Of a stretch of DNA of 64,000 nucleotides, positions 12,001 to 15,000 are shown piece by piece. Each line of letters begins with the position of its first letter. Positions within the stretch are counted from its first letter, which is position 1. Position numbers: made by a program. This DNA is from Candidatus Algichlamydia australiensis (GTDB lineage Bacteria; Chlamydiota; Chlamydiia; Chlamydiales; JAJFMI01). The stretch covers positions 628,875 to 692,874 of the forward strand of contig JAXCHI010000003.1 of NCBI GenBank assembly GCA_033977065.1, in the 5' to 3' direction.

Positions 12001-15000
12001 TTAAGAGAGACCTTTACTTCAGGGTTAATATGAACGGTAAACATCTCTTTCTTTTCTTTATCATCGAAAATAGTGAGGCCAACCTCATGCGCTAGTTCTA
12101 GTAATATTTCTTTCATTTTGAATAGACTTTTGAATTTACTTCTTCTATATGTTGGATAGAGAATTTGGAGATATTATGGAAGATGAGTTTAAGAAAATTT
12201 TGAAATTTTTTGATATGCCGATGGAAGAGAAGGCAGATAAACTCGATTCAGTTTTTGAAGAGACTTCCGTTTTTTTAGAGCGATTTAAGCATGTATTTGA
12301 GACAGGAACGCCTGAGGAAAAAAAGGCGATGATCGAAAAAGTACTTGAGCTGCAATCGCGGTTAAAGGGCGAAATGAAGCAACTAACAGAGGCTTCAGGG
12401 CTCACAGAAGAGCAAATTATGCAATTTGCGACAAACCCCAAAAATTTTAAAGAGGGGCAGTGGGACTCAATTGAATCGTCTCGAAAAAAGATTGAGGGAC
12501 AGGCGAAAGATATCGCAAAAAATCTTCGCAAAGAGTTTGGTGGCAACAAGGATGAGGGCAGTGACGATGATGATAAGCCCCCATCAGCAGGTGGCGGCAA
12601 GAAGGGTTGGATTCCTGGCTAGTACTTCGTAACAGAAATTTTTAGCATTATTTTTACGTCAAAGCCTCGGGATTGAACTATCGAAAATCACCTCGTATTT
12701 GATTAATACTAGGTGACTTGCGATAGCCCAATCGCGAGAGCTTTCACGTTAAAAAGAATAGTAAAAATTTCTGTTACAGAGTACTAGTACTTTGTAACAG
12801 AAAAATTTTATTATCTAATTTAAAAAAACAGCCAATAGAGCGCATCGCGCGTTCATTCCCCACCCTCCACTTCGTTTCGGGTAGGGCCCCTTTCGCGTCG
12901 CTTGCGCGGCTGTTTTTTTTGTTTTGTAGAAAATTTTGTATGATCTAGACAGCGTCGTTAAATCCACGTGGTCACCTTATTTTGCACATTTGGGCTTCAC
13001 TTTTACGTTTTATAAGAGTTGGGGTTCTAGCAGGTTTTCCTGGGATAATTCATCGACAATAAGGTGAGTAGGAGTGTCGGGAAGATTTTTTAATTCTTTT
13101 TTTAGAAAGGTGGGAATAAGATGGATTTTGTTTAATTGGTCTAAGTCAAACCATTTATACCTTAATGTAGTTTTCTCGTCTGAAAACTCTTCGGTTCCAA
13201 TACCTTCCTTTTGAAAGTAGATAGGGGAATCCTTTTGAAGGTGTACTAGATAGTATAAAACAAGGTCATGATGGTTAATGTTTTTAGCAGAAAAGTGGTA
13301 TAAGTCTTCTGTAAACCATAGCAGTCGATCAATAATAGGAACTTCACCAAGCTCTTCATAAATTTCTCTTTTTAAAGCTGTTTCAGAAGTTTCAAAAATT
13401 CCTGCTTTCCCTCCGGGAGTATACCAAAAATCAAAACGGTCTTCTTTAGAGAGTGTTTTCGAATGAACTTTCGTCGAGTTTTTGGATTATTTTGGCCGAT
13501 TTTTGGACTCAATTTAAGAGGGGTAATATCACCTTACGGATATGACCCTCTTAAATTGAGCCGAAAACTCGGCTCAAAAGAACCGAAAAATCGACTGAAT
13601 TTTAATTCGAAGACACTCTCCTAACCAAAAGAATTTTATTCTCGTTAATAATAATTGACGCAACGCGATATCGAAAAGCACCATCTTTGCTTTTAATATG
13701 AATATCTCGAGGCTGCGACATTGAATTTTAGCTTGCTTCTTCTTTTACAATTTCTGGATCAGCGTTTTCTGTTACACACTCTTTTGTGATGGTGATCTCT
13801 TTGATTGTAGGATCAGATGGTGTCTTGTACATCAAGTCAATGAGAAGACTTTCAACCATCATACGTAGAGCGCGCGCACCTGTACCTGCGTCTTTTGCTT
13901 TTTTTGCGATGGCAAAGAGGGCTTCATCTGTAAAGTTTAGTTCTACATTATCCTCTTTAAAGAGAGATTTGTACTGGGAGATGATCGCATTTTTCGGTTT
14001 TGTAAGAATTTCAACGAGATCTTCATGTGTAAGTTCTGCAAAGTGTGTAATGCTGTTGAAACGCCCGATAAATTCAGGGATTATTCCGAACTGGACAAGG
14101 TCAGAAGTCTCTACTTGTGAAAGAAGGTAGCTGCTCTCGTTGGGATCGAGATGTCGACTCTCTTCTAAGTCAAAGCCGATGACGCCTTTTCCCAGGCGTT
14201 TGGCAATGATTTTATCCAAGTTAACAAAAGCTCCACCCACGATAAATAGAATGTTTTCTGTATTGATTTTCAAATACTCTTGATTGGGGTGCTTGCGGCC
14301 TCCTTTTGGGGGGACATTGGCAACAGTTCCTTCAACAATTTTAAGAAGGGCTTGCTGCACGCCTTCACCAGAAACATCACGAGTGATAGAGACGTTAGAG
14401 GTTGTTTTGCGCAGTTTATCAATTTCATCAATATAGATAATACCGTGTTCAGCCCAGCTCACATCGTATTCTGCATTTTGCAAAAGGCGGAGGATAATAT
14501 TTTCGACATCTTCACCCACGTAGCCTGCTTCTGTAAGAGTCGTTGCATCAGCGATTGCAAAAGGAACATCCAAAATTTGCGCTAGTGTGCGTGCAATTAA
14601 TGTCTTCCCTGAGCCGGTGGGTCCAAGGAGGAGCACGTTCGACTTTGAGTACTCGACTTCGCGGTTTTCTTGCATGGCGCGAATGCGTTTGTAGTGATTA
14701 TAGACGGAGACAGAAATAGTGCGTTTTGCATCCTCTTGACCAATGATATACTTATCAAGTTGATCTTTGATCTCTTGTGGCTTGATTACCTTCAATTTAT
14801 GCTTTGAAGGTTTTTTCATGACGATGTCCATACAAAGACGCACACATTTGTCACAAATATAGCAATTCGGTCCGGATATTAATTTTTCTACAATATTTTC
14901 TGCTCGTCCGCAAAAGGAGCAAGCGGGCTTTTGTTTGTTCATGGGGTAGTAGCTAATTCTACGGGTTCAACAACTTTATCGATAATTCCTAAAGGTCCAT

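What the first reader, a model, noticed from the sequence alone, without database searches (positions are those of the whole stretch)
13010..13721. A Nudix hydrolase gene freshly inactivated by a second hairpin-element family
A 172-bp element with TIRs GAGAGTGTYTTCGAA sits at 13449-13620. It lies after codon 33 of a Nudix gene that starts 7 bp downstream of the clpX stop. Excision restores a 179-codon ORF with a perfect Nudix box (GKAGIFETSETALKREIYEELG). There are no other stops or frameshifts, so the insertion is evolutionarily recent. Neither fragment appears in the ORF track: the N-terminal piece is too short and the C-terminal piece has no start codon. The gene would therefore be missed by ORF calling. 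This element differs in sequence from the GATAGCG family, so at least two MITE families are active.
Basis: seen in the sequence. Interest (0 to 1): 0.6.

Follow-up and report, generated by a model that had tools for sequence, protein, structure and literature searches.

The report
Mini-transposon interrupting a chlamydial Nudix gene
A 173-base hairpin-shaped mini-transposon has landed inside a small accessory enzyme gene (a Nudix hydrolase) just after clpX in the algal symbiont Candidatus Algichlamydia australiensis, killing the gene and hiding it from annotation; this is an ordinary kind of event, though such elements are rarely reported in chlamydiae.

Summary
On the minus strand, a Nudix gene starts 7 nt after the clpX stop (ATG 13721). 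After codon 33 it is split by a 172-bp element (13449-13620). The element has 15-nt inverted ends, folds into one long hairpin, and has stop codons in all three sense frames.

Corrections:
- All 25 aligned homologues are one residue shorter at the junction. The true insert is therefore 175 bp: a 173-bp element plus a duplicated TA. The ancestral gene had 178 codons, not 179.
- The element is not unrelated to the window's "GATAGCG" elements. The ends share the consensus GAKAGYGTYKTCRAA, all copies are flanked by TA, and the interiors are about 60% alike. It is a sister family in one superfamily.
- Only one copy was found, so "active" is inferred.
- Two close relatives have no Nudix gene after clpX. 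The gene sits in a variable slot full of mini-transposon debris.

The published annotation of this genome (Cla049) has no gene here. The intact 3' reading frame limits post-insertion divergence to roughly 0.1 substitutions per site or less.

Verdict: a real, recent pseudogenisation by a non-autonomous, TA-duplicating transposon. It is a new member of a known kind, of modest interest.

The parts
13728..14942 (-). clpX, the upstream gene of the tig-clpP-clpX cluster. Its stop codon is 6 nt before the Nudix ATG.
   Evidence: 404-aa ORF. It is 100% identical to the NCBI ClpX of the MAG Candidatus Algichlamydia australiensis.
13623..13721 (-). Nudix gene, 5' fragment: native codons 1-33 (MSQPRDIHIKSKDGAFRYRVASIIINENKILLV). 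As it stands the ORF runs on for 6 element-encoded codons (RRVSSN) and stops.
   Evidence: The fragment aligns to the N-termini of 25 homologues.
13622..13623 (.). TA dinucleotide flanking the element on the gene-5' side. One of the two copies of the inferred target-site duplication.
   Evidence: Flank table. The length of the empty site is inferred from homologues.
13449..13621 (.). The non-autonomous hairpin element, 173 bp. It has 15-nt terminal inverted repeats at 13449-13463 and 13606-13620, plus one extra base (13621) between the repeat and the TA on one side. Sense-strand stops occur in all three frames.
   Evidence: The same insertion is present in an independent short-read contig, L007.
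13447..13448 (.). TA dinucleotide flanking the element on the gene-3' side, the second copy of the inferred duplication.
13010..13446 (-). Nudix gene, 3' fragment: codons 35-178 of the ancestral gene plus the stop codon at 13012-13010. It contains the Nudix box. It has no in-frame ATG, GTG or TTG, so it cannot be translated on its own.
12946..13005 (+). Decayed left half of a GATAG-type element (TAGACAGCGTCGTTAAAT...), ending a few bases from the Nudix stop codon. It marks a rearrangement breakpoint at the edge of the Nudix block.
   Evidence: nhmmer with the family profile gave E = 1.5e-5 against the window alone and 2.9e-5 in the multi-locus search, matching positions 1-60 of 165. Alignment.
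17218..17382 (.). Sister-family (GATAGCG-type) hairpin element, copy 1, TA-flanked and intergenic.
   Evidence: It is absent from the orthologous spacer of relative L132.
24966..25130 (.). Sister-family element, copy 2, in inverted orientation. Its interior is 100% identical to copy 1.
38254..38418 (.). Sister-family element, copy 3. Its interior is 99% identical to copy 1.

Best explanation
A short non-autonomous DNA transposon (a MITE) inserted at a TA dinucleotide between codons 33 and 34 of a 178-codon accessory Nudix hydrolase gene. It is 173 bp long, has 15-nt terminal inverted repeats, and its whole length folds as a hairpin. The gene lies directly downstream of, and is probably co-transcribed with, clpX in Candidatus Algichlamydia australiensis Cla049.

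The insertion duplicated the TA and added 175 bp. That shifts the frame and brings a stop codon six codons into the element. Only a 39-residue peptide can now be made. The 3' part, which holds the catalytic Nudix box, has no start codon and is silent.

The element belongs to the same superfamily as the three nearly identical GATAGCG-type elements in the window. It was presumably moved in trans by a transposase that recognises GAKAGYGTYKTCRAA ends and duplicates TA, which suggests the Tc1/mariner/IS630 type or a TA-duplicating IS5-group enzyme.

Shown: the anatomy, the gene identity, the 175-bp insert length, the TA flanks, the relatedness to the GATAG family, and the presence of the insertion in two assemblies.

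Inferred: transposition in trans, the identity of the transposase, co-transcription with clpX, and the recency of the event.
For: Anatomy of the element:
- Terminal repeats and hairpin.
- Stop codons in all three sense frames.

The two halves are one gene:
- The Pfam NUDIX match spans the junction.
- PDB entry 2pqv aligns to residues 5-161.
- 2377 representative clusters match, and the best are full length.

Insert length and target duplication:
- All 25 aligned homologues require removal of 175 bp rather than 172 bp. That equals the element plus one TA.
- TA flanks both ends of all 8 elements examined, 4 in the window and 4 from metagenomes. The two GAGAG-type elements carry one extra base on one side.

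It belongs to a mobile superfamily:
- The shared end consensus is found only at element ends: 8 exact sites, and 9 hits at up to 1 mismatch against 0.34 expected.
- The three sister copies at different loci are 99-100% identical.
- Relative L132 lacks the copy at 17218.
- GATAG-type copies 73% identical occur in unrelated 49-50% GC metagenome contigs.

It is not an artefact of one assembler: the Logan short-read contig L007 carries clpX, the Nudix 5' fragment and 146 bp of the element, base for base.

The gene is dead now:
- There is no start codon in the 158-codon 3' frame.
- No CDS is annotated here in the published genome.

Recency:
- None of 20000 composition-matched shuffles keeps a 178-codon frame open.
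- 91 possible single substitutions would create a stop. The chance of staying open is 50% at d = 0.023 and 5% at d = 0.10 substitutions per site.

Background: IS630/Tc1/mariner elements insert at TA and duplicate it (PMC2170065). Bacterial MITEs are 100-200 bp, form stem-loops, and often have TA termini (PMC2229807).
Against: - Only one copy of this particular element was found. Multi-copy status, a defining trait of a MITE family, is unproven. I could not search the remaining ~1.7 Mb of the genome.
- No autonomous insertion sequence with matching ends was found.
- The stored part of the published annotation lists IS5-type (DDE_Tnp_1, DUF772) and Mutator-type transposases but no IS630-type domain. 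The class of the mobilising enzyme is therefore open.
- No conspecific empty site is available. The TA duplication is inferred from protein alignment, not from an unfilled allele.
- The right-hand junction (13447-13449) is seen only in the nanopore-plus-Pilon MAG, because L007 stops 26 bp short of it.
- One side has an extra base between the repeat and the TA. A 3-bp imperfect duplication (TAG/TAA) cannot be excluded.
Confidence: 0.83

Rival explanations
1. The insertion predates its current setting, or the gene was already non-functional. Either the Nudix block arrived in this lineage already carrying the element, or the gene had lost expression before the hit. In both cases 'freshly inactivated here' is wrong, although the anatomy is the same.
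For: - The Nudix gene is lineage-specific at this site. Homology to relatives L132 and L133 stops at 13721 and resumes at 12621. Those relatives have an ATPase gene, or only 218 bp, in the slot.
- Its GC is 34.8% (GC3 28.5%) against about 42% (GC3 37-44%) for its neighbours, which suggests foreign origin.
- The block ends in a truncated element remnant.
Against: - The element's superfamily is resident in this genome, with three 99-100% identical sister copies. Insertion in situ is therefore the simpler reading.
- The ORF is otherwise intact over 178 codons, so any silent period has been short.
- The family also occurs in other chlamydiae: a Waddliaceae MAG protein is 53% identical.
Confidence: 0.1
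2. Assembly or amplification artefact. The hairpin was created or misplaced by multiple-displacement-amplification chimeras, by nanopore assembly at 10x coverage, or by Pilon polishing.
For: - The MAG was built from 10x nanopore reads and polished with MDA-amplified short reads (PMC11317633).
- MDA is known to create inverted chimeras (own knowledge).
- The right junction is not covered by the independent contig.
Against: - An independent short-read assembly (Logan, SRR26803925) reproduces the left junction and 146 bp of the element exactly.
- The element is not an inverted copy of adjacent sequence.
- It has the ends and TA flanks of a family found at other loci and in other metagenomes.
- The insert length is exactly what a TA-duplicating insertion predicts.
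Confidence: 0.03
3. The element does not kill the gene. It is either skipped (translational bypass or RNA-level removal), or it acts as a reversible switch through precise excision that restores the TA and the reading frame.
For: - A TA-duplicating cut-and-paste element could in principle restore the ORF if it excised exactly.
- The ORF is still perfect.
- The strong hairpin is loosely reminiscent of bypass elements (own knowledge).
Against: - No intron or other RNA family is detected. The only Rfam matches are sub-threshold generic hairpin matches.
- 175 nt with 8 stop codons across the three sense frames is far longer than known bypass gaps (own knowledge).
- No matching take-off and landing codons are apparent in the sequence.
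- No empty-site allele branches off at the left junction in the short-read contig.
Confidence: 0.02
4. It is not a transposon but a locally generated palindrome or a structural repeat (REP-like or terminator-like) that arose in place.
For: - The whole element folds as a hairpin.
- The clpX-downstream spacer of relative L133 also holds a perfect 24-nt inverted repeat.
Against: - It sits inside a coding sequence whose homologues lack any insert there.
- Its ends and part of its interior match a dispersed family.
- It has no similarity to the flanking DNA.
Confidence: 0.02

Closest known systems
RUP (repeat unit of pneumococcus), the MITE mobilised by IS630-Spn1 in Streptococcus pneumoniae
   Same: Short, non-coding, with terminal inverted repeats and a stem-loop fold. 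It inserts at TA with TA duplication. It has stop codons in its reading frames and is known to inactivate genes it lands in (PMC2229807).
   Different: RUP is 107 bp with 9-bp perfect ends, and its partner insertion sequence is known. Here the element is 173 bp, the ends are unrelated in sequence, no partner has been found, and only one copy has been seen.
Correia / NEMIS elements of Neisseria
   Same: About 107-155 bp, with long inverted ends, TA at the termini and a TA duplication. The transcript forms a long hairpin. The 155-bp form has stops in all frames (PMC2229807).
   Different: Correia elements are almost exclusively intergenic and carry an IHF site and promoter parts. No promoter-like site was found here. 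The sequences are unrelated.
The GATAGCG-type hairpin elements of the same window (17218-17382, 24966-25130, 38254-38418)
   Same: Similar size (161-172 bp between the TA flanks), whole-length hairpin, TA flanks, the end consensus GAKAGYGTYKTCRAA, and an interior about 60% identical.
   Different: The ends differ at 4-5 of 15 positions. The interior is far below the 99-100% identity seen among the three GATAG copies. This element has one extra base at one end and lies in a gene rather than a spacer. It is a distinct family within the superfamily.
MITECca01 of the Cardinium endosymbiont (IS982-derived)
   Same: A MITE in an intracellular symbiont that contributes to pseudogenisation (PMC9769881).
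   Different: MITECca01 is about 240 bp, is clearly derived from a resident insertion sequence (ISCca4), and has many copies. Here the parent insertion sequence is unknown.
Rickettsia palindromic elements (RPE)
   Same: Palindromic elements 105-146 bp long, found inside protein-coding genes of obligate intracellular bacteria (PMC2229807).
   Different: RPEs are inserted in frame and translated as part of the host protein. This element shifts the frame and terminates translation.

Membership tests
Bacterial MITE (non-autonomous element with terminal inverted repeats) | Small size (under about 300 bp) with terminal inverted repeats | tested here: met
   173 bp with 15-nt ends matching at 14 of 15 positions.
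Bacterial MITE (non-autonomous element with terminal inverted repeats) | No transposase or other coding capacity | tested here: met
   It is too short to encode a transposase. The sense frames all contain stops. The single 53-aa antisense ORF has no relatives among 5.8 billion proteins.
Bacterial MITE (non-autonomous element with terminal inverted repeats) | Target-site duplication at the insertion | tested here: met
   TA lies on both sides. 25 of 25 homologues show that the empty site is 175 bp shorter, which equals the element plus one TA. The evidence is indirect, because no conspecific empty site was available.
Bacterial MITE (non-autonomous element with terminal inverted repeats) | Multiple dispersed copies in the genome | tested here: inconclusive
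   There is one copy in 64 kb and none in the collections I could search. The sister family has 3 copies plus a remnant.
Bacterial MITE (non-autonomous element with terminal inverted repeats) | An autonomous insertion sequence with matching ends that supplies the transposase | not testable with these tools
   Ten ORFs checked in the window include no transposase.
IS630 / Tc1 / mariner-mobilised element | Insertion at TA with duplication of the TA | tested here: met
   The family property is taken from PMC2170065. Some IS5-group elements also make 2-3-bp TA or TNA duplications (own knowledge), so this feature is not exclusive.
IS630 / Tc1 / mariner-mobilised element | An IS630-family transposase (DDE_3 with HTH domains) present in the genome, with similar ends | tested here: inconclusive
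   The terms 'IS630', 'DDE_3' and 'HTH_Tnp' do not occur in the stored part of the published annotation table. IS5-type (DDE_Tnp_1, DUF772) and Mutator-type transposases are listed. The file was truncated when stored.
Nudix hydrolase superfamily (the interrupted gene) | Nudix box GX5EX7REUXEEXGU | tested here: met
   G-KAGIF-E-TSETALK-RE-I-Y-EE-L-G matches 22 of 23 positions. The last hydrophobic position is E, as it is in P0001.
Nudix hydrolase superfamily (the interrupted gene) | Domain-level match above the curated threshold | tested here: met
   Pfam PF00293 scores 54.5 bits against a 21.1-bit cutoff. PDB entry 2pqv matches at E = 1.9e-16. No NCBIfam equivalog reaches its cutoff, so the substrate is unknown.
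Nudix hydrolase superfamily (the interrupted gene) | Nudix alpha/beta/alpha fold | not tested
   No structure prediction was run.
GATAGCG-type element family of this window | Same terminal repeat and high interior identity to the other copies | tested here: not met
   The ends differ at 4-5 of 15 positions. The interior is about 60% identical, against 99-100% among the three copies. It is related but is not a member of that family.

The most novel reading that the evidence does not exclude
These TA-flanked, whole-length-hairpin elements with GAKAGYGTYKTCRAA ends form a previously undescribed MITE superfamily that is currently mobile in environmental chlamydiae. It has at least two diverged families in one Simkaniaceae symbiont of dinoflagellates, and 73%-identical relatives in other lineages with 49-50% GC. 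One of those contigs shows a dnaB-gidA-lplA gene order, which from memory is the order in Chlamydia trachomatis. The elements cluster in, and may help create, variable gene-exchange slots such as the one after clpX. That slot holds the Nudix gene with this element, a truncated element at the edge of the block, and a third inverted-repeat element.
Probability: 0.4. Interest if true: 0.4.

Novelty: new member of a known kind. Interest (0 to 1): 0.3.

Why it matters
- **Annotation.** A recognisable gene is invisible to ORF callers and absent from the published annotation. Pseudogene counts and 'unique gene' lists for this symbiont are therefore slightly off.
- **Genome dynamics.** Chlamydiae are usually regarded as poor in mobile DNA. 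A recently moved mini-transposon family, with relatives in other metagenomic lineages, shows ongoing gene inactivation and probably horizontal traffic in an algal endosymbiont.
- **Strain markers.** The TA-flanked insertion gives a clean presence/absence marker for typing Algichlamydia populations.

None of this changes how such elements are thought to work.

Tried and rejected
1. I scanned the genome collection with the bare 15-mer end. The pattern was far too unspecific: 120 or more chance single hits in unrelated taxa, none of which matched the family profile.
2. A metagenome and viral scan for both own ends 127-157 bp apart found nothing.
3. A protein-space search with the element's 58-aa open antisense frame, meant to catch mis-called ORFs in other copies, found nothing. 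Exact look-ups of two element ORFs also found nothing.
4. blastn of the element against plasmids and phages, and of a sister-family copy against plasmids, gave no match.
5. Rfam gave no family, only sub-threshold generic hairpin (miRNA-like) hits. This rejects an intron or a known RNA element.
6. Synteny with the nearest Nudix homologue P0001 was tested and rejected. Its neighbours are not clpX or the 157-aa gene, and its contigs are 32% GC.
7. I looked for an intact Nudix gene after clpX in relatives L132 and L133 and found none.
8. A literature search for the end sequences returned only chance primer matches. No paper combining MITEs and chlamydiae describes such an element.
9. I tried to name the organisms behind L128. 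No source names were available, and Pfam showed only housekeeping genes.
10. The promoter scan of 12600-13800 found no sigma-70-like site. I dropped the idea that the element drives the 3' fragment.
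Full report
**What is in the sequence**

The feature lies on the minus strand. clpP (15577..14939) and clpX (14942..13728) are followed, 6 nt after the clpX stop, by an ATG at 13721. That frame runs for 33 native codons, enters a foreign segment and stops after six more codons, giving a 39-aa ORF.

The foreign segment, 13449-13620, has the ends GAGAGTGTTTTCGAA and GAGAGTGTCTTCGAA in inverted orientation. 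The whole 172 bp fold into a single long hairpin: -49.1 kcal/mol as DNA, z = -9.4, and no shuffle out of 200 does as well. The repeat finder reports 57-nt arms, 77% complementary. On the sense strand the segment has stops in all three frames.

Downstream, a 158-codon stretch from stop to stop (13486..13010) contains no ATG, GTG or TTG.

**The two halves are one Nudix gene, and the insert is 175 bp**

Deleting 172 bp gives a 179-codon ORF. It matches Pfam NUDIX across residues 17-142 (E = 1.5e-14, 54.5 bits against a 21.1-bit cutoff). It also matches the uncharacterised MutT/Nudix protein 2pqv over residues 5-161 (E = 1.9e-16). No NCBIfam equivalog reaches its cutoff, so the substrate is unknown.

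The word-indexed search found only two relatives, P0001 (58% identity) and P0002. An exhaustive HMMER scan of 1.84 billion cluster representatives found 2377 at E <= 1e-3, 753 at E <= 1e-10 and 8 at E <= 1e-30. The best matches are full-length proteins of 155-175 aa that span the junction.

In an alignment with 25 of them, every homologue has a one-residue gap against the 172-bp-excision product, exactly at the junction. The frame allows only 172 + 3n, so the DNA actually added was 175 bp. Removing 13447-13621 gives ...CTT TTG GTT AAA GAA GAC... (LLVKEDRF) and a 178-codon gene. Because TA lies on both sides of the element (13447-48 and 13622-23), the simplest account is a 173-bp element plus duplication of a target TA. 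One base, 13621, sits between the inverted repeat and the TA on one side. A 3-bp imperfect duplication (TAG/TAA) is the alternative.

**What the element is**

The window holds three copies of the "GATAGCG" hairpin element, at 17218-17382, 24966-25130 and 38254-38418. Their interiors are 99-100% identical to one another, and one copy is inverted. All three are intergenic.

Aligning them with the Nudix insert shows related ends, GATAG[C/T]GTCGTCAAA against GAGAGTGT[T/C]TTCGAA. The degenerate consensus GAKAGYGTYKTCRAA occurs exactly 8 times in 64 kb, and all 8 sites are ends of the four elements. With up to one mismatch allowed there were 9 hits against 0.34 expected.

All four elements are flanked by TA on both sides and fold end to end. 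With the ends trimmed, the insert's interior is about 60% identical to the GATAG copies, z = 4-5 against shuffles. A profile built mostly from GATAG-type copies scores the insert at E = 1.5e-28. The insert was one of the six sequences in that profile, so this score is partly circular.

The element is therefore a diverged sister family within one superfamily, not an unrelated second kind.

A metagenome scan with the degenerate end pair found four more TA-flanked elements:
- L128 and L131 are GATAG-type, 73% identical to the window copies, in 77-78-kb contigs of 49-50% GC.
- L129 is GATAG-type at the ends with an unrelated interior.
- L130 has GAGAGTGTCTTCAAAT ends, is 170 bp long with an unrelated interior, and also carries one extra base on one side.

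I found no second copy of the Nudix insert itself. The searches were the window, metagenome and viral scans for its own end pair, protein space, exact ORF look-ups, and the plasmid and phage collections. My one scan of the genome collection was wasted on a pattern that was too short, so the remaining ~1.7 Mb of this genome was not searched.

**Where it sits**

ClpX is 100% identical to the NCBI protein of the MAG Candidatus Algichlamydia australiensis. This is a Simkaniaceae symbiont of the dinoflagellate Cladocopium (Maire et al. 2024, PMC11317633).

The published gene table places the window at contig_3, offset +628,874. EFCAOE_05250 corresponds to 12149-12622 and clpX EFCAOE_05255 to 13728-14942. 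No CDS is listed between them, so the gene was indeed missed.

The MAG was built from 10x nanopore reads with Flye and polished with Pilon using MDA-amplified short reads. An independent Logan short-read contig, L007, reproduces clpX, the Nudix 5' piece and 146 bp of the element base for base. It ends 26 bp before the element's far end.

In the two nearest relatives the flanking genes are syntenic but the slot differs. L132 (GCA_054603195.1) has ClpX 92% identical, and L133 (GCA_003232615.1) has ClpX 89% identical. Both have tig (in L132 only)-clpP-clpX on one side and a 150-aa gene, CesT and (in L132) CdsD on the other. Homology stops at window 13721 and resumes at 12621. L132 has a 488-aa ATPase gene in the slot, and L133 has only 218 bp with its own 24-nt perfect inverted repeat.

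The Nudix gene is also compositionally odd: GC 34.8% and GC3 28.5%, against about 42% and 37-44% for its neighbours. Its closest named relative is from a Waddliaceae MAG (53% identity).

The lineage-specific 1.1-kb block contains the following:
- the split Nudix gene;
- a decayed left half of a GATAG-type element ending about 5 bp from the Nudix stop (12946-13005, E = 1.5e-5);
- a terminator-like hairpin;
- a third inverted-repeat element (12619-12787), with an extra solo end at 12786-12803 and another at 46554.

The slot after clpX is thus a variable region littered with small mobile elements. The Nudix gene is an accessory gene there.

**How it most likely works**

A transposase supplied in trans bound the inverted ends of a master copy and integrated the element at a TA in the Nudix coding sequence, duplicating the TA. 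This behaviour was shown biochemically for IS630/Tc1/mariner enzymes (PMC2170065). It is typical of bacterial MITEs such as RUP and Correia (PMC2229807).

The 175 added bases shift the frame and bring in a stop after six codons. The catalytic part has no start codon, so the enzyme is lost. Because the gene starts 7 nt after clpX, the hairpin is probably now part of the clpX transcript's 3' end. Whether it affects that mRNA is untested, and no promoter-like site was found.

The class of transposase is open. TA duplication points to IS630. However, the stored part of the genome's annotation lists IS5-type and Mutator-type transposases and nothing of IS630 type. From my own knowledge, ends beginning GAG..TGT...CGAA resemble IS5/IS1031-group ends, and some of those make 2-3-bp TA or TNA duplications.

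**How recent**

Apart from the insert the ORF is flawless. None of 20000 composition-matched shuffles keeps 178 codons open. 91 single substitutions would create a stop, so the chance of remaining open falls to 50% at 0.023 and to 5% at 0.10 neutral substitutions per site, before counting indels. This bounds the age but does not date it. There is no conspecific genome for comparison.

**Rivals**

- **Artefact.** This is unlikely, because a second assembler reproduces the left junction. The element also has the family's ends and flanks, and the insert length fits a TA duplication. The right junction still rests on the MAG alone.
- **Insertion before acquisition, or a gene that was already silent.** This cannot be excluded, since the gene is lineage-specific and compositionally foreign.
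- **Bypass, splicing or a reversible switch.** There is no positive evidence. Rfam finds no intron, and the short-read contig shows no branching at the left junction.
- **A locally arisen palindrome.** This is contradicted by the shared ends and interior and by the clean gap in 25 homologues.

**Comparison with known systems, and verdict**

The element works like RUP and Correia-type MITEs: 100-200 bp, inverted ends, TA duplication, a stem-loop fold, and stops in the reading frames. Like MITECca01 in Cardinium (PMC9769881), it pseudogenises genes in an intracellular symbiont. Unlike Rickettsia RPEs, it is not read through in frame.

The membership tests for 'MITE' are met for size, ends, lack of coding capacity and target duplication. 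Copy number is inconclusive, and the partner insertion sequence could not be tested. The element is not a member of the GATAG family proper.

No paper in the searchable library describes these ends or MITEs in chlamydiae.

This is a real, tidy, probably recent gene inactivation by a new member of a well-known class of element. It is useful for annotation and as a strain marker, and mildly interesting for chlamydial genome dynamics. It is not mechanistically surprising.

Noticed in passing
window 17218-17382, 24966-25130, 38254-38418: Three TA-flanked GATAGCG-type hairpin elements of 161 bp. Their interiors are 99-100% identical and one is inverted. All are intergenic, and two lie within about 250 bp of tRNA genes (16925-16996 and 38659-38732). 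The orthologous spacer in relative L132 lacks the 17218 copy. They look like the currently active family.
   Followed up: partly
window 12946-13005: A decayed left half of a GATAG-type element (TAGACAGCGTCGTTAAAT...) ends about 5 bp from the Nudix stop codon. The edge of the lineage-specific Nudix block is a breakpoint inside a mini-transposon. The Nudix protein also has an 11-residue C-terminal tail (SQENLLEPQLL) that most homologues lack.
   Followed up: partly
window 12619-12808 and 46554-46571: A third inverted-repeat element of about 169 bp, with 38-nt ends CTAGTACTYYGTAACAGAAATTTTTA (87% complementary). It starts at the stop codon of the 157-aa gene. A tandem solo end lies at 12786-12803 and another solo end at 46554. 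The motif gives 4 hits against 0 expected.
   Followed up: partly
window 12622-13720 versus L132 11222-12973 and L133 4036-4254: The slot between clpX and the conserved 150-aa/CesT/CdsD genes is variable among close relatives. Here it holds the Nudix gene plus element debris. L132 has a 488-aa ATPase_2 gene on the other strand. L133 has only 218 bp, containing a perfect 24-nt inverted repeat (ATCTCGACTTTGTACATTTTTTCG...).
   Followed up: partly
L128 4154-4317 and L131 1571-1734 (JGI Ga0180433 contigs of 77-78 kb): GATAG-type elements 73% identical to the window copies occur in contigs of 49-50% GC. In L128 the element sits between dnaB and gidA-lplA, a gene order I recall from Chlamydia trachomatis. 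The same metagenome also holds the nearest Nudix homologue, on a different contig of 32% GC. This suggests the superfamily is spread among several lineages, possibly all chlamydial.
   Followed up: partly
L130 404-573 and L129 573-731: These elements have the same end types (GAGAGTGTCTTCAAAT and GATAGTGTCGTCAAAT) and TA flanks, but interiors unrelated to the window copies. The ends, not the interior, are the conserved part. L130 shares with the Nudix insert the odd extra base between one end and the TA.
   Followed up: no
L007 end (window 13475) and L134 end (window ~12658): The independent short-read (Logan) contigs stop inside the Nudix insert, 26 bp before its end, and just past the 38-nt end of the third element. 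Neither break is explained by repeats within the window. Both would be expected if further copies or variants exist elsewhere in the sample. This is weak, indirect evidence for more copies.
   Followed up: no
window 13010-13721: The Nudix gene has GC 34.8% and GC3 28.5%, against about 42% and 37-44% for clpX, clpP, tig and cdsD. This is consistent with relatively recent acquisition.
   Followed up: partly
window 40575-40589: A one-mismatch match to the superfamily end consensus (GAGAGTTTTGTCAAA) lies inside the 865-aa ORF 38770-41367. It is probably chance and was not examined.
   Followed up: no
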